Part shown: one piece after another, positions 2,274 to 63,527 of the stretch | Layout of the letters: the number at the start of each line of letters is the position of its first letter | How positions within the stretch are numbered: the first letter of the stretch is position 1 | Sequence record: NC_024142.2 | Reading direction: 5' to 3' (one strand) | DNA from: Escherichia phage Bp4 | DNA length: 64,000 nucleotides | Position numbers and translations under genes: made by a program | The notes under the pieces: model-generated | The model's input: only the letters and a program-made list of their open reading frames with translations | Told to the model about the DNA's origin: nothing | Database searches by the model: none

Positions 2274-2564
2274 TCACATCGTCACCGTCATCCGAACACT
2301 GTCTTTGCTTCGCCTGACGGAGACACTATGAGGTAATTTTGTGAAGAACACAATAGCTGAAGGGCGTTTTTCTAAAGAGTAAGTTTCTCTTGGTTCTAGG
2401 ATTTTAATGCCTGGACGATTCTCTAAAAGCATCATCCCAGCTAATTCATGGTAGGTATCTTCATCATGTGTGATGATAATATCATCTGAAAGGATACCTG
2501 CTTTGGTGTGGTCTATCTCTGCGTATTCATCTTTGGAGTCATGGACTCTCATATAGATTCTCAA
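2274..2564 (-). CDS. small protein, paralog family member D
   Basis: Core motif DEDTYHELAGMMLLEN. Confidence 0.45.
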   Translation of the reverse strand: MRIYMRVHDSKDEYAEIDHTKAGILSDDIIITHDEDTYHELAGMMLLENRPGIKILEPRETYSLEKRPSAIVFFTKLPHSVSVRRSKDSVRMTVTM

Positions 2565-2733
2565 AGGTTACTCCTTTTGGGAATAGGGTCATCGGAACAT
2601 TACATACTATTTAGTATCATGAACTTTTTCTATATCATGACTAAAGTGTAACTGTATGGTATCGTTTCTTCAAGGGTAACTCACCCCAAGAAAGAATCTT
2701 CTTTAATAGACATAACTTTGTAGCGAGATAAGT

Positions 2734-3423
2734 ATGAGTGAACTAACTAAGCAGCAGATTGTTAATGCCTTACCTGCTAACTTCAAAAACAGTGTGACCC
2801 AGGAGTTGGTAGACACGATCAACAACATAACCCAAGACCAACTGGTTGCTGAGTCTTTCCGTGAAAACTTTATCTCCTACTCTGGTGTAATGAAGGAAGG
2901 TAAGTTCAAGACACAGGACTACATGAATGCAGTTCAGTATGTGACTTATAAACACATGGGCTATTCAAATAAGGAAGCCTACTTCAAGACATTCCCTAAC
3001 CGACAAGCAGAACTTGTTGCACGAGGAACCAGCGAGAAAGATATTAGTGCTTATGTATCTGCATATCACAGAGGTAAGTTAGTTAACCTCATCATGGAAC
3101 AAAGTTTGGTTCCAGTGTGGATTGTGAACCAGGACAATTATCAGAAGGCAATCAATGTTCAGGTTGAACTGATGACTTCAGCAGCAAGTGAGAAGGTAAG
3201 ATGTGATGCAGCTAACTCTATCCTTACTCATTTGGCTAAACCAAAGGACCAGGTAACAAATATCAATCTGGATTTAAGAGAGAACTCTGGGTTAACTGAC
3301 CTCAAGGCAACACTTGCTGCATTAGCTGAACAACAAATCAATGCAATCAATAGTGGTGTACCCACCAAAGAGGTTGCTGGTTCTAAACTAGTACGTGCTG
3401 ATGAGGACATTACAGATGTCTGA
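2734..3423 (+). CDS. hypothetical protein, possibly terminase small subunit (position only)
   Basis: 229-aa ORF immediately upstream of and overlapping the large terminase start. Confidence 0.35.
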   Translation: MSELTKQQIVNALPANFKNSVTQELVDTINNITQDQLVAESFRENFISYSGVMKEGKFKTQDYMNAVQYVTYKHMGYSNKEAYFKTFPNRQAELVARGTSEKDISAYVSAYHRGKLVNLIMEQSLVPVWIVNQDNYQKAINVQVELMTSAASEKVRCDAANSILTHLAKPKDQVTNINLDLRENSGLTDLKATLAALAEQQINAINSGVPTKEVAGSKLVRADEDITDV

Positions 3424-43846: not shown

Positions 43847-44823
43847 GATGGAAAATATCTCTCTCTTTGTTTGCAAATGGACGCGACAGGGCAGTATAGA
43901 CAACGCTTAACCTGCCCCTCCACGACCTTGATAGCACCCTTGCCACCTTTTTCAGCCATGAAGATACGAGCAGATGCCATATCGTCAAATTTTTTGGTAC
44001 TTCTGGCTCCAGGTACATCTACCTTAGAAGCATCAGAGAAGTATTTGAACTGTGGCTCTGTTCGCCACAACTCCTCATCAGTACATTCAGGAATTTCCTC
44101 TTCTGGTGCATTCCAGTACTTCTCAATGAGGTGAATCTTCTCTTCTACCCAACGTTCAGTCTTCTCAACAGATAGCAACGGAATATCCTTATGCATAATA
44201 CGATTAGCAGGATAGTTTGGATTGCTATTAGCCATATGCTTCATGAAGTCAGTGAAGATGTAGTTAATACGGATTACATCCTCGGTAATGATGTCGTTGT
44301 GAATCCAACGGTACAAGCTGCCTTGCATCTTGTGTTCATCATCACGGGAACCAGCAACCCAGGAATAGGTTGAGGTAGACTTAAAGTCCTGCAACAGACC
44401 TTCTGTTACGATGTCGAACTTACCACCGATAGTCCAACCCTTAACTACCCTGGTTCCACGCTGTTCAATGTAGATTGGGATAAGGTCAGGGTTAGCATCA
44501 AAGTCTGCTTTGGTTGGGTTAATAACTACTGCATCAATTACTCGTTGAGGATAACCCAACTTCTTCAATGCAGTCTTATGACCCAGCTTCCAGGCTTTCT
44601 CGATAGAATCATGTAAACCAGTACCCATTGATGTGGAGACGAAATCCATAACATCAATTGACTGATCACTTAAATCTACACGATGCTTCATGACGATTTG
44701 CTTAATGGGCTTAAGCAATGTGGTAACAGACAGATACTTAGGGTTATCTACATAGTCATAATCATCCGTTACAAGCCATACAGCTAGTGCAAGACTAACG
44801 TCGTGTTTGTTGGTAAGTTTCAT
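43843..44823 (-). CDS. PD-(D/E)xK family nuclease with C-terminal Cys cluster
   Basis: GKFDIVTEGLLQDFK (D…E…K arrangement) and C-terminal CLYCPVASIC. Confidence 0.45.
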   Translation of the reverse strand: MKLTNKHDVSLALAVWLVTDDYDYVDNPKYLSVTTLLKPIKQIVMKHRVDLSDQSIDVMDFVSTSMGTGLHDSIEKAWKLGHKTALKKLGYPQRVIDAVVINPTKADFDANPDLIPIYIEQRGTRVVKGWTIGGKFDIVTEGLLQDFKSTSTYSWVAGSRDDEHKMQGSLYRWIHNDIITEDVIRINYIFTDFMKHMANSNPNYPANRIMHKDIPLLSVEKTERWVEEKIHLIEKYWNAPEEEIPECTDEELWRTEPQFKYFSDASKVDVPGARSTKKFDDMASARIFMAEKGGKGAIKVVEGQVKRCLYCPVASICKQRERYFPS

Positions 44824-45317
44824 AACAGTCCCAATTGCTTATTAGTTTTAGCAAACTCACCATAATGAGTTATAGCAGCTTCATCATAGAGAACAGCAGC
44901 TTCTCTTGGGTCATCTGTAAAACCTAATGTAATTGGTTTACTGTTAACCCAAATAGTTGCTCTGTATTTACCTAAATTCTTTGAAAAGGATACCCCCTTA
45001 AATCCAGATGTGTTTGTTTTAGATAAAACAGCACTCTGGTTATTCTGCTTGTGGGTCGCTTCTCTGAGGTTATCTATCCAGTTGTGATGGCGAATATTGT
45101 CCTTATGGTCAATCCTATCCGTAGGCCATACACCGTGCACATAGAACCATGCAAGGATATGCCCATAGTACAACACACTATCTACACGGAGTTGAACGTA
45201 ACCACTCTTCATTAGGTAACCAGATACCTTTCCGGTATTCCTACGAGTAAAAATCCCGGAAATAGGGTCATAACTAACAAGCTGTAAAAGCCTGTCATGG
45301 GCAATCCTCTGTTTCAT
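44820..45317 (-). CDS. HNH homing endonuclease with AP2 DNA-binding domain
   Basis: HNH core RIDHKDNIRHHNWIDNLREATHKQNN, then AP2-like SGFKGVSFSKNLGKYRATIWVNSKPITLGFTDD. Confidence 0.8.
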   Translation of the reverse strand: MKQRIAHDRLLQLVSYDPISGIFTRRNTGKVSGYLMKSGYVQLRVDSVLYYGHILAWFYVHGVWPTDRIDHKDNIRHHNWIDNLREATHKQNNQSAVLSKTNTSGFKGVSFSKNLGKYRATIWVNSKPITLGFTDDPREAAVLYDEAAITHYGEFAKTNKQLGLL

Positions 45318-59336: not shown

Positions 59337-59546
59337 TTACTCAGCGTCTTTGCTTGCAGGAGCAAGAGCTTTCTTCAGGTAATTACGTACTGAACGATAG
59401 GTTTCTTTGGTATCCATAGTACTATCATTTACGAATGTGATACGTGCACAATCAGACAGTGGAATTTGTTCCACTCCTACTACATTTGCAGCATTAATGG
59501 TTACACGTACATCTGAGGTTGCATGAGTTACTTGAAATACTGACAT
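59337..59546 (-). CDS. hypothetical small protein
   Basis: 69-aa ORF. Confidence 0.4.
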   Translation of the reverse strand: MSVFQVTHATSDVRVTINAANVVGVEQIPLSDCARITFVNDSTMDTKETYRSVRNYLKKALAPASKDAE

Positions 59547-59555
59547 GTTGTTTCC

Positions 59556-60062
59556 TTATTTACTGCTTCTTGCAGCTACTGGTTTGTTTTCCTGGTTCTG
59601 ATACTTGCCATTGTAATTAGCAGGTTCCTGAACCAGATGAAATAATACTTGAGCTATCCCAGAACCAGCCGGGATATGCAGTTTCTTACGACCGTGATAG
59701 ACAAGTTCGAGGGTAAGATACCCTTTCCATCCTGGTTCTATTACGGTATTGAACACAGATAATGCACGTCTTGCCCAGGTAGACTTATCGTGAACGATGG
59801 CTACACAGGAAGGAGACATGTTGAACTTCTCAATTGCTGAAGCCAATGTGAACTTACCGAGATGGCGTGATACTTGATTTCCATCAACGACTTTCACCAT
59901 TGGAATCAACCCAAATAAGCGATAGAAGGTAATATCTTGTTTGATACGAATATCATAACCAGCTTCACCCAATCCATAGCTTACACCATGCTCGGATACC
60001 TTACGGTCTGGGACATCCAGCAACTGAGATGAACGATAAAGAGAATTACCATTAACAACCAT
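59556..60062 (-). CDS. dcd: dCTP deaminase (Dcd/dUTPase superfamily)
   Basis: GYDIRI and STWARRALSVFNTVIEPGWKGYLTLELVYHG … AQVLF parallel E. coli Dcd motifs. Confidence 0.7.
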   Translation of the reverse strand: MVVNGNSLYRSSQLLDVPDRKVSEHGVSYGLGEAGYDIRIKQDITFYRLFGLIPMVKVVDGNQVSRHLGKFTLASAIEKFNMSPSCVAIVHDKSTWARRALSVFNTVIEPGWKGYLTLELVYHGRKKLHIPAGSGIAQVLFHLVQEPANYNGKYQNQENKPVAARSSK

Positions 60063-60580
60063 TATTTCATTCCTTTAGGGATATGAACTACCTCCCCAAA
60101 AGGTACGGTAGCATTAGGATTATTCAGAACACACCAGATGATAGGAATATCAAATGGTAATTCTTTCATTGGGCGAACATACATATCGGAGAATATGATT
60201 GCAGCGGTTGGCTTATTCTTAATAATCCAATCACGTACTGGTTCAAGGCTTGTACCACCACGACCAGTAATCTTAATCTCTTCAAAAGTATCTTCTTCAG
60301 TGATGTCTATTTCTTCCTGGATAATATCGTCGAAGGTAATTAGTGACATCTTCTTAGGATTGAACTGACTTTTAACGTAGGCGACTTCTGAGTTAAAACG
60401 CAGAGAGTCAGCACTACTAATAGAACCAGATACATCCTCAAAGTAGGCTAAGTGACGTAGACGTCCTTCATCATCTTCTAAGGAAGGTAGATAGATGTCA
60501 GTGTAACGACGGTTGGGTCTGGCCCACGTATAATGTGTGTCATCAATGTCGGTAAAAAGTTCATCAGAACTTCCTGCCAT
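60062..60580 (-). CDS. vWA-domain protein, C-terminal segment
   Basis: MIDAS-like DVSGSIS…TGRGGTS; upstream part of the gene lies in other frames. Confidence 0.55.
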   Translation of the reverse strand: MAGSSDELFTDIDDTHYTWARPNRRYTDIYLPSLEDDEGRLRHLAYFEDVSGSISSADSLRFNSEVAYVKSQFNPKKMSLITFDDIIQEEIDITEEDTFEEIKITGRGGTSLEPVRDWIIKNKPTAAIIFSDMYVRPMKELPFDIPIIWCVLNNPNATVPFGEVVHIPKGMK

Positions 60581-60675
60581 GGAACCACTGGTTTAAGGAA
60601 TTGGGTAATAACCTCTTCCATACGACCAGCACCTTTACCAGGCATCTGTCCACCAGCCATTTTCTGGCTCTGCAT
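60478..60675 (-). CDS. vWA-domain protein, middle segment (frame-shifted)
   Basis: Frame open upstream: HFGQSQGAVVNNVVRAMQSQKMAGGQMPGKGAGRMEEVITQF. Confidence 0.45.
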   Translation of the reverse strand: MQSQKMAGGQMPGKGAGRMEEVITQFLKPVVPWQEVLMNFLPTLMTHIIRGPDPTVVTLTSIYLP

Positions 60676-61234
60676 TGCACGTACTACGTTGTTGACAACA
60701 GCACCCTGGGACTGCCCGAAGTGGGGATTTCATGTCGCCAGCAAGACCTGCTCCAGCACCCCCTGACGGCTTCTGCCTTTTCTGAGGGTTCTTCATCAGG
60801 TCATCGTAGATGTCTTCTTCGACCCATCCTTTATATTGAGGGTCTTTGCAAATGCCTTCATCAATGCCAGTGAACTTGTAACCATCTTCTTCTAACTGAA
60901 GGTTAATGAAGTGGTCACAAGCCTGGTTCCAGACTTCTGGGTCACGGCTTCCACGTCGGATGTCGTGTAGATATGCCACATGCCATAATTCATGCATAAG
61001 CACTGTTTCTCTTACATCTGGACACATCCAGATAAAGAAATCTGGGTTGAAATGGAGTTCTATCCCATCAGTACATGCAGTGGGACAATCCTCACGTTTC
61101 CATGAGAATTTAAGACTACACAGTAATGAACCAAAGAAGGCTGCGCTGCGACCTAAAAAAGCCTGCGCTTGGATTCTATCGTACTCCCTCATTAGCTGCT
61201 CATCTGTGAGACTATGCGTAGGTATACTGTTCAT
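60635..61234 (-). CDS. vWA-domain protein, N-terminal metallopeptidase-like segment
   Basis: HELWHVAYLH motif; C-terminal ~30 residues Cys-rich out-of-frame; removing one C from the CCCC run (plus GGGG 60723-60726) restores the frame. Confidence 0.55.
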   Translation of the reverse strand: MNSIPTHSLTDEQLMREYDRIQAQAFLGRSAAFFGSLLCSLKFSWKREDCPTACTDGIELHFNPDFFIWMCPDVRETVLMHELWHVAYLHDIRRGSRDPEVWNQACDHFINLQLEEDGYKFTGIDEGICKDPQYKGWVEEDIYDDLMKNPQKRQKPSGGAGAGLAGDMKSPLRAVPGCCCQQRSTCNAEPENGWWTDAW

Positions 61235-61566
61235 TAGGGTGCTCCATGATTGGGGTGATAGCCATACAGTTTTTCAGCCGCTTTTCTGGCGTCTATGGCA
61301 TCTTGCTTGTCTGCAAAAGTGCCCAAACTTACCAGACGTGTTCCATCAGATATAGCTGCATACCAGATGGAATCACGCTTGTGCCAGTACACACCAGTAA
61401 CACCACTGGAATTAGTTACCCGTTTCTTTTGGTTTCTGGTGTTAGTTCTGCTGTCTACTAATCTAAAGTTACTTAGAAGGTTATTAACCCTATTGTGGTC
61501 TAGGTGATCAATCTGCATACCTTTCGGGATAGGTCCATTGTGCATTTCCCATATGACACGGTGCAC
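61234..61566 (-). CDS. HNH homing endonuclease with AP2 domain (annotated ORF is the 3' two-thirds; gene likely 61234..61713)
   Basis: IDHLDHNRVNN HNH core and SGVTGVYWHKRDSIWYAAISDG AP2-like; the N-terminus (MNWNDILVYINGELFW) lies in another frame, rejoined by adding one T to the T5 run at 61628-61632. Confidence 0.75.
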   Translation of the reverse strand: MHRVIWEMHNGPIPKGMQIDHLDHNRVNNLLSNFRLVDSRTNTRNQKKRVTNSSGVTGVYWHKRDSIWYAAISDGTRLVSLGTFADKQDAIDARKAAEKLYGYHPNHGAP

Positions 61567-61719
61567 TTTGTAACTTTTGCCCTTATAGTTGAAGCATAAA
61601 TAACCATCGCTATTTAGATTACCTACCTTTTTCCAGCAATGCCTCTGGAGGCTACTGTAACTTTCCAGAATAGCTCCCCATTTATGTAAACGAGTATGTC
61701 ATTCCAGTTCATGTTGTGA

Positions 61720-62220
61720 TTACCCGTGAATGTAGCGAGAGATATTAGCAGCAGCCTTACGCCATTCAGGGGTAGCCTGAAGATCTGGTAATGCATTGCC
61801 TACTGTACGGAAGTACAGAATCTTATGGGTGAACGTTTTAAAGCGTTCAATATACTGAAGAACATCAGCAAAGTTTTCTTCAGTAGTTTTGTTAGCCAGA
61901 TGGTTAACGGTAGCCCAACACAGGTTGTTATCTTCTGGTAGTGCACAACCCATAGGGTCTTTGACTACTTTTTCAATCGTAATGATACGATTGTATACCT
62001 GAGTGAACTGAACAAACTCTGTAGCCTTACCAGCAGTAACGTGACCTGAATAGTAGATAGAATCTTCATCAGGAAGAGCACCTTCTGGTAAGTTCTTGAG
62101 GTCTTTATTAACAAAGTCCCAAGTACGAGGGCAACAGAACGTTTTGTTCTTATGTGCTGGGTCGAAGTCATGCAGATAACCAGGGTTAGCATGTAAGAAT
62201 GCAACCAGACGTTCATCCAT
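61720..62220 (-). CDS. MoxR-like AAA+ ATPase, C-terminal segment
   Basis: In-frame continuation of the upstream ATPase after a 1-nt frameshift near 62225-62245. Confidence 0.55.
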   Translation of the reverse strand: MDERLVAFLHANPGYLHDFDPAHKNKTFCCPRTWDFVNKDLKNLPEGALPDEDSIYYSGHVTAGKATEFVQFTQVYNRIITIEKVVKDPMGCALPEDNNLCWATVNHLANKTTEENFADVLQYIERFKTFTHKILYFRTVGNALPDLQATPEWRKAAANISRYIHG

Positions 62221-62771
62221 TGCTGAGGAATCATTACATCTTCAACAAAGATGTCGAAGTTAAGTTCCATTTCAAAGTGAACCACACGAGACTGCATTGC
62301 AGTACCCAGTGGGTTAACAATGGCACGGTCAGTAGCTTTGTTACCAGCACAGACAATCATCACATTAGGATGAAGTTTTTTCTGACCAGTCATACGGTCT
62401 AGAATCAGTTTATATGCAGCAGCTACTACTTCTTTCTTAGCTGAGTTGAACTCATCAAGGAATAAGAGCCAGCCATTATACCCTTCTGGTAATTCATCTC
62501 CCTCAATTGGGAATAAGTCAGCGAATGGAATAAACTCTGCACGGTCACCATTACGGAATGGTAAGCCAGAAAGGTCTTCCGGGGCAGAAGTTGACAGACG
62601 ATGGTCTATCAACTTCATACCAAATTCTTCTGCAATAGAACGAATGATTGCAGATTTACCCATGCCAGGTGATGAAGTCAGGAACGGTACGTTACCTGCT
62701 TTCAAAGCACGGATAATAAAGTTACGAGCTTGACGTGAATTACATACGGTCAAGGAGTCAATGCTTGCCAT
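61965..62771 (-). CDS. MoxR-like AAA+ ATPase, N-terminal segment
   Basis: Walker A SSPGMGKS, Walker B LLFLDEFNSA; last ~80 residues are out-of-frame read-through. Confidence 0.65.
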   Translation of the reverse strand: MASIDSLTVCNSRQARNFIIRALKAGNVPFLTSSPGMGKSAIIRSIAEEFGMKLIDHRLSTSAPEDLSGLPFRNGDRAEFIPFADLFPIEGDELPEGYNGWLLFLDEFNSAKKEVVAAAYKLILDRMTGQKKLHPNVMIVCAGNKATDRAIVNPLGTAMQSRVVHFEMELNFDIFVEDVMIPQQWMNVWLHSYMLTLVICMTSTQHIRTKRSVALVLGTLLIKTSRTYQKVLFLMKILSTIQVTLLLVRLQSLFSSLRYTIVSLRLKK

Positions 62772-62805
62772 TTACTTACTCTCCTAAAGCTAATGGAATT
62801 ACTGA

Positions 62806-63135
62806 TTAAGATTTAGTGCAGGGATAGGCCTTGTGTACTGAGTACACAACAATTTGAGATGTATTCTTCATCTTGAGGATTGCAGAGTCATAAATAACCA
62901 CTTTGGCAATCTTAGGCAGAATGACCGAATATTTAATACCTTCTGGAACACAGTTATCTGTGCTCTCGATGTAAGAGATCATACTGCCCATGAAGAAACC
63001 TTGTCCGAACGCATCACGAGTGTCATCCAGGTAAGCCTGAGCACCTTCCAGAATTGGTTCTGGTTCAATTGCTTGTGCACTTGGGGCTAAAGCTATCAGT
63101 GCAGCTACTGCAATACCTTTAAGTAAAGTTTTCAT
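62806..63135 (-). CDS. secreted/periplasmic small protein
   Basis: Sec-type signal peptide MKTLLKGIAVAALIALAPSAQA with AQA cleavage site. Confidence 0.5.
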   Translation of the reverse strand: MKTLLKGIAVAALIALAPSAQAIEPEPILEGAQAYLDDTRDAFGQGFFMGSMISYIESTDNCVPEGIKYSVILPKIAKVVIYDSAILKMKNTSQIVVYSVHKAYPCTKS

Positions 63136-63321
63136 TTAGTTACCTTTCATTTCATTGAGTTTAAGTACACCGATAGGGGTTAATGACCACCCAAGACCAG
63201 CATTGAACTGAACTAAGCCCAGCTTCTTAAGAGACTGTGCGGTTTTGTTATTACGGTTGCTGGTGGCAGAACCACCTTGAACCATACGAAGGAAGATTGC
63301 TTGGGACTGAGTTAATTTCAA
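63136..63321 (-). CDS. hypothetical small protein
   Basis: 61-aa ORF abutting neighbours. Confidence 0.35.
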   Translation of the reverse strand: MKLTQSQAIFLRMVQGGSATSNRNNKTAQSLKKLGLVQFNAGLGWSLTPIGVLKLNEMKGN

Positions 63322-63527
63322 AGGTAATATCCTTCCAGGTTTATTGGTGTTACAAATGTATTTGCTGATAGATAGAATGATTTACCAGTTTCTACAGCAA
63401 CAGCAGCAGGTTTGCCTTCAGGTAGGTGAATCTTTAAACACACTGTCTGGTTATAAATAAAACCATTAGCAGGCTCTACATCACCGAAAGTTACTTCATT
63501 GTTCTCAGAACGATTTGTTACTTTCAC
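63318..63527 (-). CDS. hypothetical small protein
   Basis: 69-aa ORF, overlapping stop/start. Confidence 0.35.
   Translation of the reverse strand: MKVTNRSENNEVTFGDVEPANGFIYNQTVCLKIHLPEGKPAAVAVETGKSFYLSANTFVTPINLEGYYL

What the first reader, a model, noticed from the sequence alone, without database searches (positions are those of the whole stretch)
60062..62771. MoxR AAA+ ATPase and vWA/metallopeptidase-like partner, split by a homing endonuclease and multiple frameshifts
A MoxR-type ATPase (Walker A GMGKS, Walker B LLFLDEFN) lies upstream of a protein with an HExxH-like N-terminal domain (HELWHVAYLH) and a C-terminal vWA/MIDAS domain (DVSGSIS). The function of this pair in phages is not established. 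Here an HNH-AP2 gene is inserted between them, and both partners are broken (ATPase once, vWA twice).
Basis: partly seen in the sequence, partly recalled or inferred. Interest (0 to 1): 0.55.

Follow-up and report, generated by a model that had tools for sequence, protein, structure and literature searches.

The report
Known phage gene pair, sequencing-error frameshifts
This is the ordinary, well-conserved ATPase/vWA gene pair of N4-like coliphages with a mobile HNH endonuclease gene parked between them, and the "frameshifts" are almost certainly single-base homopolymer errors in the deposited phage Bp4 genome, not biology.

Summary
They are homologues of N4 gp24 (AAA+ ATPase) and gp25 (zincin-like HExxH domain plus vWA/MIDAS domain), with a free-standing HNH endonuclease gene between them.

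The window is the public genome of Escherichia phage Bp4; its broken ORF products match Bp4 proteins exactly. Phage PD38 (same species) differs from the window over 64 kb by only 3 substitutions but by 34 deletions. All 34 are in the window, and 32 lie in homopolymer runs of 3 or more. Restoring them gives intact proteins of 350, 159 and 391 aa. The same kind of deletion also breaks DNA polymerase three times, the primase, rIIA and structural genes, which no viable phage could tolerate.

So the frameshifts are sequencing or assembly artefacts. The Uz-1 record shares them only because it is colinear with Bp4.

The pair is one of the published core gene pairs of N4-like phages, function still unknown. 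The HNH gene sits between the two genes and interrupts neither. Interest is low.

The parts
61720..62771 (-). gp24 homologue, an AAA+ ATPase. It is 350 aa when repaired. In the window it is split into ORFs 61965-62771 and 61720-62220.
   Evidence: phrog_1297 'ATPase', E=1.3e-133; 1794 homologues; the cluster of 685 members is almost all 350 aa. Walker A lies at 62652-62669 and Walker B at 62445-62468. G38, K39, S40, D106, E107, N144 and R162 are invariant in 30 homologues.
62217..62218 (.). Shortened homopolymer that breaks gp24: CC here, CCC in PD38, G7C and IME11.
61235..61712 (-). Free-standing HNH (HNH_3, with sub-threshold AP2) homing endonuclease gene. It is 159 aa when repaired. It starts 8 nt after the gp24 stop, and its stop overlaps the gp25 ATG (TAATG).
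   Evidence: The intact 159-aa form is seen in PD38 and in independent Logan/ENA assemblies.
61628..61632 (.). Shortened homopolymer that breaks the HNH gene: T5 here, T6 in PD38.
60062..61234 (-). gp25 homologue, with an N-terminal zincin-like domain (DUF2201_N) and a C-terminal vWA/MIDAS domain (DUF2201). It is 391 aa when repaired. In the window it is split into ORFs 60635-61234, 60478-60675 and 60062-60580.
60715..60726 (.). Two shortened homopolymers in the gp25 interdomain linker: CCC (C4 in relatives) and GGGG (G5 in PD38). Together they give a -2 shift.
60554..60558 (.). Shortened homopolymer in gp25: A5 here, A6 in PD38 and AAAGAA in G7C and IME11. It brings the reading frame back, so 55 codons in between are read out of frame.
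61145..61234 (-). First ~90 nt of gp25, largely synonymously recoded in HNH-carrying genomes. Identity to HNH-less IME11, pSb-1 and U1G is 57-73% here, against 83-100% further into the gene. This is the probable former target or co-conversion tract of the endonuclease.

Best explanation
The region is the normal gp24 - HNH - gp25 module of a Gamaleyavirus (an N4-like, G7C-like coliphage). The window is the deposited genome of Escherichia phage Bp4.

The five frame breaks are single-base under-calls of homopolymer runs in that deposit. In the real phage all three genes are most probably intact, at 350, 159 and 391 aa.

The HNH gene is a free-standing homing endonuclease. It inserted exactly at the gp25 start codon, taking over its ATGAAC, so it separates the two genes without interrupting either.

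Inferred function of the pair, not shown here:
- gp24 is a MoxR-class (AAA_5/midasin/NorQ-like) AAA+ ATPase.
- gp25 acts as its adaptor. The vWA/MIDAS site would hold an acidic residue of a protein substrate while the ATPase remodels it.
- The fused HExxH zincin-like domain would cleave the substrate.
- The pair would thus act as a remodelling and processing machine, expressed with the middle (replication-phase) genes. The substrate, whether a phage or a host protein, is unknown.
For: Identity of the window:
- The window's three broken ORF products are exactly Bp4 proteins AHN83418.1, AJB43755.1 and AJB43754.1, on a 72,583-bp contig.

Artefact:
- Against PD38, the window has 3 substitutions and 34 deletions over 64 kb, with no insertions.
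- 32 of the 34 lie in runs of 3 or more (P about 4e-26, given that 13% of bases lie in such runs). One-directionality has P about 1e-10.
- There are 0 substitutions in 59400-63400.
- The outgroups G7C and IME11 have the PD38 length at the gp24 site and the three gp25 sites. At the HNH site only PD38 could be compared.
- The other deletions break DNA polymerase I three times, the gp43-like primase, rIIA twice, the tail fibre and two large structural genes (with the annotations).
- Repaired ORFs are full length. They match clusters of hundreds of intact 350-aa and 391-aa proteins.
- Uz-1 has the same breaks but is position-for-position colinear with the window: 3822 substitutions, no indel and the same length. 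It is therefore not independent evidence.

HNH:
- Pfam HNH_3 E=1.4e-17.
- This allele occurs only in PD38, Uz-1 and Moonfish. A 58%-identical allele sits at the same site in G7C, UE-* and Mimir124. The gene is absent in IME11, pSb-1 and U1G (read here) and, judging by query coverage in the searches, in most other relatives.
- The 5' end of gp25 is recoded next to it.

Pair:
- Pfam hits and invariant catalytic, MIDAS and Walker residues.
- The best ATPase sequence match in the PDB is midasin. The best TM-scores are to NorQ and CbbQ2.
- The genes are core genes of N4-like phages and, per that paper citing earlier work, middle-phase transcripts in N4 (PMC4193335; PMC7650795).
- The same architecture is described in jumbo phages, with a proposed assembly-chaperone and peptidase role (PMC7824862).
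Against: - No reads of Bp4 could be examined, so the artefact verdict rests on comparison, not on raw data.
- pSb-1 and U1G each also have a 1-nt homopolymer difference in the same G/C-rich gp25 linker. Separate C-terminal gp25 ORFs occur in some metagenome assemblies. A natural split there is therefore not excluded in principle.
- The functional model is inference from homology. AAA_5 and AAA_3 do not reach Pfam thresholds. The Foldseek ranking does not separate MoxR-class from RFC, dynein or Lon. The zincin fold of the N-domain was not confirmed by structure search, because the listed hits were all, or nearly all, vWA/I-domain matches.
Confidence: 0.9

Rival explanations
1. The frameshifts are real. 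The Bp4 lineage has pseudogenised gp24, gp25 and the HNH gene, making it a natural knockout of the core pair.
For: The breaks are present in two public records, Bp4 (the window) and Uz-1.
Against: - Uz-1 is colinear with Bp4, with no indel in 64 kb despite 6% substitutions and the same total length. It evidently inherited the indels from a shared template.
- The same class of deletion breaks DNA polymerase, primase and structural genes.
- There are 0 substitutions against PD38 in this 4-kb region.
- All 34 events are deletions, and 32 are in homopolymer runs.
Confidence: 0.03
2. Only the two deletions in the gp25 interdomain linker (60715-60726) are real. They would reflect a recurrent natural split of gp25 into separate zincin and vWA polypeptides. 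The other breaks are errors.
For: - pSb-1 and U1G have independent 1-nt differences in the same linker and are annotated as two ORFs. In U1G the two ORFs overlap by 4 nt and restart at the natural Met of 'GDMKSP'.
- 224-aa C-terminal ORFs also occur on two Logan contigs.
Against: - In the window the frame is only restored 55 codons later, by a third homopolymer deletion (60554-60558). The conserved segment VVNNVVRAMQ...PWQEVLMNFF would therefore be lost.
- PD38, identical in every substituted position here, has the full runs.
- The linker is simply rich in C4, G4 and G5 runs, where such errors are expected.
Confidence: 0.05
3. The breaks are bypassed by programmed ribosomal frameshifting or transcriptional slippage, so full-length proteins are still made.
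For: Three of the five sites are A/T runs of five (60554-60558 and 61628-61632) or G/C runs of four.
Against: - Of the relatives read at these sites, PD38, G7C and IME11 encode the proteins in one frame. Only pSb-1 and U1G differ, each by 1 nt in the gp25 linker. Most database homologues are full length.
- The gp24 site (CC in CATCCATTG) is not slippery.
- The mechanism would have to operate at 20 or more sites genome-wide, including DNA polymerase.
Confidence: 0.01

Closest known systems
Escherichia phage N4 gp24 (AAA+ ATPase) and gp25 (vWFA-domain protein), core genes of N4-like phages (Schitoviridae)
   Same: Orthologous. N4 gp25 is 61% identical over 98% of the query. The genes are adjacent and upstream of dCTP deaminase and ThyX. 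They are listed as conserved core genes and, in N4, as middle transcripts, with function unknown (PMC4193335; PMC2784036; PMC7650795).
   Different: Nothing beyond species-level divergence. This copy has an HNH gene between the two genes and carries sequencing-type frame breaks.
MoxR AAA+ ATPase - vWA pair with an N-terminal metallopeptidase on the vWA protein, in group 2.2 jumbo phages (Iyer et al. 2021, PMC7824862)
   Same: Same two-gene architecture. Homologues of both proteins were found here in jumbo phages (PA5oct, K64-1, CMSTMSU, slurp01, fHe-Yen9-04) and in rV5-like phages.
   Different: The published role, as a virion-assembly chaperone with peptidolytic processing, is a proposal and has not been tested. 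Identity to the jumbo-phage proteins is only 24-36%.
Cellular MoxR-class AAA+/vWA systems: NorQ/NorD, CbbQ/CbbO, RavA/ViaA, midasin (Rea1) with its MIDAS domain; and the Acidianus two-tailed virus MoxR-vWA pair
   Same: An AAA+ ATPase is paired with a MIDAS-bearing vWA partner. The best ATPase sequence hit in the PDB is midasin AAA domains. The best TM-scores are to NorQ (NorQD complex) and CbbQ2. The vWA model also matches the MDN1/Rea1 MIDAS domains and the NorD vWA domain. These systems are reviewed in PMC7159879.
   Different: - None of the named cellular systems is described here as having a fused HExxH domain on the vWA partner.
- Pfam AAA_5 is below threshold and AAA_3 is not hit.
- gp24 has a roughly 160-residue helical C-terminal extension.
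CLCA1 (calcium-activated chloride channel regulator), a zincin metalloprotease plus vWA protein
   Same: It is the top Foldseek PDB hit of the gp25 model (CLCA1 VWA domain, E=5.4e-4). From my own knowledge, CLCA proteins also combine an N-terminal HExxH protease domain with a MIDAS-bearing vWA domain.
   Different: CLCA1 is a eukaryotic secreted protein with no AAA+ partner. The similarity shown here covers the vWA domain only.
Free-standing HNH homing endonucleases of phages, e.g. G7C gp24.1 (annotated 'similar to EndZ of phage TLS') and, from my own knowledge, the T4 seg/mob genes
   Same: The gene occupies an intergenic position between conserved genes. Its distribution among close relatives is sporadic. 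Different alleles occur at the same site, and the flank of the neighbouring gene is recoded.
   Different: The Bp4/PD38 allele is only 58% identical to G7C gp24.1. Cleavage specificity is untested.

Membership tests
MoxR-class AAA+ ATPase (Pfam AAA_3/AAA_5; MoxR, CbbQ/NorQ, midasin) | Walker A, Walker B, sensor-1 and arginine residues of an AAA+ core | tested here: met
   PGMGKS and LLFLDEFN are present. G38, K39, S40, D106, E107, N144 and R162 are invariant in 30 homologues. Pfam AAA scores 27.2 bits against a cut-off of 21.2.
MoxR-class AAA+ ATPase (Pfam AAA_3/AAA_5; MoxR, CbbQ/NorQ, midasin) | Scores above the curated threshold of a MoxR-class family model | tested here: not met
   AAA_5 scores 16.9 bits against a cut-off of 22. 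AAA_3 is not hit, and NCBIfam gives no hit.
MoxR-class AAA+ ATPase (Pfam AAA_3/AAA_5; MoxR, CbbQ/NorQ, midasin) | Closest solved relatives are MoxR-class rather than other AAA+ clades | tested here: inconclusive
   By sequence, only midasin is hit (E=2.9e-4 single sequence, 7e-4 profile). By Foldseek, dynein, RFC, NorQ, Lon and CbbQ2 all fall at E of about 1e-6. The best TM-scores (0.56-0.61) are to NorQ and CbbQ2.
MoxR-class AAA+ ATPase (Pfam AAA_3/AAA_5; MoxR, CbbQ/NorQ, midasin) | Genomic pairing with a vWA/MIDAS protein | tested here: met
   The two genes are adjacent in every relative whose region was fetched here (G7C, IME11, PD38, pSb-1, U1G). Both are listed as core genes across N4-like phages.
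MoxR-class AAA+ ATPase (Pfam AAA_3/AAA_5; MoxR, CbbQ/NorQ, midasin) | Hexameric assembly and ATP hydrolysis | not testable with these tools
   Needs biochemistry.
vWA domain with MIDAS | vWA (Rossmann-like alpha/beta) fold | tested here: met
vWA domain with MIDAS | Complete MIDAS motif DxSxS...T...D | tested here: met
   D268, S270, S272, T329 and D351 are invariant in 30 homologues of 48-86% identity.
Zincin-type metallopeptidase | HExxH on a helix, plus a third ligand | tested here: met
   H81, E82 and H85 are invariant, and H90 is nearly invariant. D107, invariant on the next long helix, is the candidate third ligand. HExxH lies in predicted helix 72-87, after a three-stranded sheet. Pfam DUF2201_N 'putative metallopeptidase' E=1.8e-56.
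Zincin-type metallopeptidase | Fold similarity to a solved zincin | tested here: inconclusive
Zincin-type metallopeptidase | Peptidase activity | not testable with these tools
   Needs biochemistry.
Free-standing HNH homing endonuclease | HNH nuclease domain | tested here: met
   HNH_3 scores 63.5 bits against a cut-off of 24.8. phrog_99 E=4.5e-56. PADLOC 'HEase' E=8.7e-10. The AP2 DNA-binding domain is only sub-threshold, at 23.3 against 33.3 bits.
Free-standing HNH homing endonuclease | Sporadic presence at one locus among close relatives, with an intact empty site in others | tested here: met
   Present in PD38, Uz-1 and Moonfish. A different allele is present in G7C, UE-* and Mimir124. Empty in IME11, which has a 7-nt gap, and in pSb-1 and U1G; by query coverage also in ECBP1 and others.
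Free-standing HNH homing endonuclease | Cleavage of the empty allele and biased inheritance in co-infection | not testable with these tools
   The only indirect sign is the 57-73% identity of the first 90 nt of gp25 between HNH+ and HNH- genomes.
Genuine frameshift mutations / pseudogenes | Indels accompanied by substitutions, in both directions, and sparing essential genes | tested here: not met
   34 deletions, 0 insertions and 3 substitutions. DNA polymerase, primase and structural genes are hit.
Genuine frameshift mutations / pseudogenes | Independent confirmation in another isolate | tested here: not met
   The only other record with the breaks, Uz-1, is indel-free colinear with the window and has the same length.

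The most novel reading that the evidence does not exclude
The interdomain linker of gp25 may be a genuine, recurrent break point. Some Gamaleyaviruses (U1G, pSb-1, a few metagenome contigs and possibly Bp4) would then really express the zincin-like and vWA/MIDAS halves as two separate proteins. That would show the two modules work in trans with the gp24 ATPase.
Probability: 0.05. Interest if true: 0.3.

Novelty: already known. Interest (0 to 1): 0.08.

Why it matters
It matters mainly as a caution.

- The Bp4 record, the exemplar of species Gamaleyavirus Bp4, carries at least 34 homopolymer deletions in these 64 kb.
- These fragment about a dozen genes, including gp24, gp25 and DNA polymerase.
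- Uz-1 appears to have inherited them.
- The fragments have entered protein databases as separate proteins. The N-terminal gp25 fragment is even named 'HNH endonuclease'.

The biological question behind the finding is real and still open: what the universally conserved gp24/gp25 AAA+ and vWA-peptidase pair does in N4-like phages. It is already recognised in the literature, and this window adds no new handle on it.

Tried and rejected
- **Homing scar in gp24.** I asked whether the gp24 break coincides with the site where an HNH-containing, intron-like insert interrupts gp24 in pSb-1, U1G and VCO139. It does not. That insert lies after about codon 107, near Walker B, whereas the window's break is at about codon 185.
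- **Uz-1 as independent confirmation.** Rejected. Uz-1 is position-for-position colinear with the window over 64 kb and has the same total length as Bp4. About half of its substitutions are natural alleles also seen in IME11 or G7C.
- **PD38 as the faulty genome.** Rejected. G7C and IME11 share PD38's run lengths at the gp24 and gp25 sites, and PD38's ORFs are full length.
- **Anti-phage defence role.** PADLOC gave only a marginal DolB hit for the ATPase (E=0.006) and nothing for gp25.
- **NCBIfam.** No hits.
- **Exact-pattern scans of IMG/VR.** Scans for the window-type and PD38-type gp24 junction both returned nothing, so they were uninformative.
- **Bp4 genome paper.** Zhang et al. 2016, Virol Sin 31:353, cited in PMC7650795, is not held, so the sequencing platform could not be checked.
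- **Zincin fold.** The structure search could not test the fold of the gp25 N-domain, because vWA hits filled the lists.


Full report
**What is in the sequence**

On the minus strand of 60062-62771 there are seven ORF fragments. They belong to three genes.

- An AAA+ ATPase, with Walker A PGMGKS at 62652-62669 and Walker B LLFLDEFN at 62445-62468.
- An HNH endonuclease.
- A protein with HELWH at 60980-60994 and a MIDAS-type DVSGS at 60422-60436.

The frame breaks are also physically present. The ATPase changes frame once. The vWA protein changes frame twice.

**Where the window comes from**

Megablast against phage genomes places the region in Gamaleyavirus, the N4-like, G7C-like coliphages. 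It is 99.8% identical to phage PD38 and 95.3% identical to phage Uz-1, the latter at identical coordinates.

An exact-sequence look-up shows that the three largest broken ORF products are database proteins of Escherichia phage Bp4: AHN83418.1, AJB43755.1 and AJB43754.1, on a contig of 72,583 bp. The window is therefore the deposited Bp4 genome. That record is not itself in the phage collection searched.

**Why the frameshifts are artefacts**

Aligned with PD38 (same species, Gamaleyavirus Bp4), the 64-kb window shows 3 substitutions and 34 deletion events.

- All 34 are deletions in the window; there are no insertions.
- 32 of the 34 lie in homopolymer runs of 3 or more, and 23 in runs of 4 or more. 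Only 13% and 3.4% of bases lie in such runs (P about 4e-26 and 3e-26).
- The one-sidedness alone has P about 1e-10.

In 59400-63400 there are no substitutions at all and exactly five 1-nt deletions:

| Window position | Run in window | Run in PD38 | Gene |
|---|---|---|---|
| 60554-60558 | A5 | A6 | gp25 |
| 60715-60717 | C3 | C4 | gp25 |
| 60723-60726 | G4 | G5 | gp25 |
| 61628-61632 | T5 | T6 | HNH |
| 62217-62218 | C2 | C3 | gp24 |

The outgroups G7C and IME11 agree with PD38 in length at the gp24 site and the three gp25 sites, so the window is the odd one out. With the bases restored, the ORFs are 350, 159 and 391 aa. These are the lengths seen in hundreds of independent genomes and assemblies.

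The remaining 29 deletions include the following (compare the annotations):

- three in DNA polymerase I;
- one in the gp43-like primase;
- two in rIIA;
- one in the tail fibre;
- five in two large structural genes.

A phage that was isolated and propagated cannot carry all of these. An excess of indels over substitutions, all in one direction and all in homopolymers, is the signature of homopolymer under-calling. This interpretation rests on my general knowledge of sequencing error modes. The Bp4 paper was not available, so the platform could not be checked.

**Uz-1 is not independent support**

Uz-1 has the same ORF coordinates. It is position-for-position colinear with the window across 64 kb, with 3822 substitutions, no indel and the same total length of 72,583 bp. 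About half of its differing bases are natural alleles also present in IME11 or G7C. By contrast, IME11 at similar divergence shows several natural indels within 4 kb. The simplest reading is that the Uz-1 consensus was threaded on the Bp4 record and inherited its indels.

**What the genes are**

The pair is orthologous to N4 gp24 and gp25 (G7C annotation; N4 gp25 is 61% identical).

*gp25.* It matches DUF2201_N ('putative metallopeptidase', E=1.8e-56) and DUF2201 ('VWA-like', E=1.2e-33). In 30 homologues of 48-86% identity, these residues are invariant:

- the HExxH residues H81, E82 and H85;
- the full MIDAS set D268, S270, S272, T329 and D351.

*gp24.* It passes Pfam AAA but not AAA_5 or AAA_3. 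Its only PDB sequence match is to the AAA domains of midasin. Its model (pLDDT 84) matches many AAA+ clades at similar E-values, with the best TM-scores to NorQ and CbbQ2, which are MoxR-class. 'MoxR-class' is therefore reasonable but not proven.

**What is known about the pair**

- gp24 ('Unknown') and gp25 ('vWFA domain') are two of the 14 core genes of N4-like phages. In N4 they are middle transcripts (PMC4193335; see also PMC2784036, and PMC7650795).
- Homologues of both occur in about 700-800 phage records. These include rV5-like and jumbo phages.
- The same architecture, a MoxR ATPase with a vWA partner carrying an N-terminal metallopeptidase, was described in jumbo phages. A virion-assembly chaperone and processing role was proposed there, by analogy with the MoxR-vWA pair needed for tail development in Acidianus two-tailed virus (PMC7824862; PMC7159879).
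- No experimental function was found in the literature held here.

My working model is inference only. A gp24 hexamer would use the gp25 MIDAS site to grip an acidic residue of a protein substrate and remodel it, and the fused zincin domain would cleave it. The target is unknown.

**The HNH gene**

It is a free-standing homing endonuclease (HNH_3 E=1.4e-17; AP2 only sub-threshold).

In IME11, gp24 and gp25 are 7 nt apart. In the window the HNH ORF starts at the ATGAAC that serves as the gp25 start in HNH-less phages. It ends in TAATG, which overlaps the gp25 start. It therefore separates the genes without interrupting either.

Its distribution among relatives is sporadic:

- This allele occurs only in PD38, Uz-1 and Moonfish.
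- A 58%-identical allele sits at the same site in G7C, UE-* and Mimir124.
- Most other Gamaleyaviruses appear, from query coverage in the searches, to have none at this site.

The first 90 nt of gp25 are 57-73% identical between HNH+ and HNH- genomes, against 83-100% further in. The protein sequence there is nearly unchanged. This is the pattern expected of a recoded, cleavage-resistant target or co-conversion tract.

**Verdict**

The gene pair and the HNH insertion are real but already annotated and published. Novelty: already known. Interest: low.

The only residual oddity concerns the gp25 linker. Independent records (pSb-1, U1G) also differ by 1 nt in its G/C runs. This is probably the same kind of error, but it was not checked at read level.

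Noticed in passing
window 1017, 1341, 2122, 2673, 2690, 7415, 8443, 20879, 23555, 23649, 23752, 24006, 24885, 36253, 37745, 38335, 38340, 38538, 38651, 43605, 46731, 47108, 48659, 53885, 55315, 56871, 57132, 59081, 63995: There are 29 further 1-2-nt deletions relative to PD38, nearly all in homopolymer runs. They split DNA polymerase I (three sites), the gp43-like primase, rIIA (two sites), the tail fibre, an 884-aa protein and a 654-aa structural protein (four sites). Any other 'broken gene' finding from this window should be read in this light.
   Followed up: yes
whole window vs OP312987.1 (L005/L006): The Uz-1 record is the same length as Bp4 (72,583 bp). It is colinear with the window, with 3822 substitutions and no indel in 64 kb, and it has stretches of zero difference (6-10 kb and the HNH gene). 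It looks like a reference-threaded consensus that inherited Bp4's frameshifts.
   Followed up: partly
window 60635-61234; phrog_1314; NC_008720.1 and many RefSeq records: The gp25 family (DUF2201_N + DUF2201) is labelled 'HNH endonuclease' in PHROGs (phrog_1314) and in many RefSeq phage records. These include N4 itself and the Bp4 N-terminal fragment YP_009113232.1. This appears to be a propagated misannotation.
   Followed up: partly
L009 (pSb-1) 2319-3358; L010 (U1G) 2320-3258; also VCO139 (H132): In some relatives the gp24 ATPase gene is interrupted after about codon 107, near Walker B, by a roughly 0.9-kb insert carrying another HNH ORF. U1G annotates it as 'Phage intron'. A genuine split of this gene by a homing element therefore exists, but not in this window.
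   Followed up: partly
L009 1077-1133; L010 1134-1137; proteins P0257-P0270: gp25 is annotated as two ORFs in pSb-1 and U1G, because of 1-nt differences in the same G/C-rich interdomain linker. C-terminal gp25 ORFs of 95-245 aa starting at internal Met residues occur in several ENA/Logan assemblies. I could not tell whether these are errors, contig ends or a natural split.
   Followed up: partly
window 62806-63135 (-): A 109-aa protein with a signal peptide lies just upstream of gp24. Its counterparts in related phage records are annotated Tai4 or Rap1a (type VI amidase-effector immunity-like). I did not examine it.
   Followed up: no
window 44820-45317 (-): A second HNH homing endonuclease gene lies in the replication module, according to the Uz-1 and PD38 annotations, next to the gp42-like gene. 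It shows that free-standing endonuclease genes occur at several sites in this genome.
   Followed up: no
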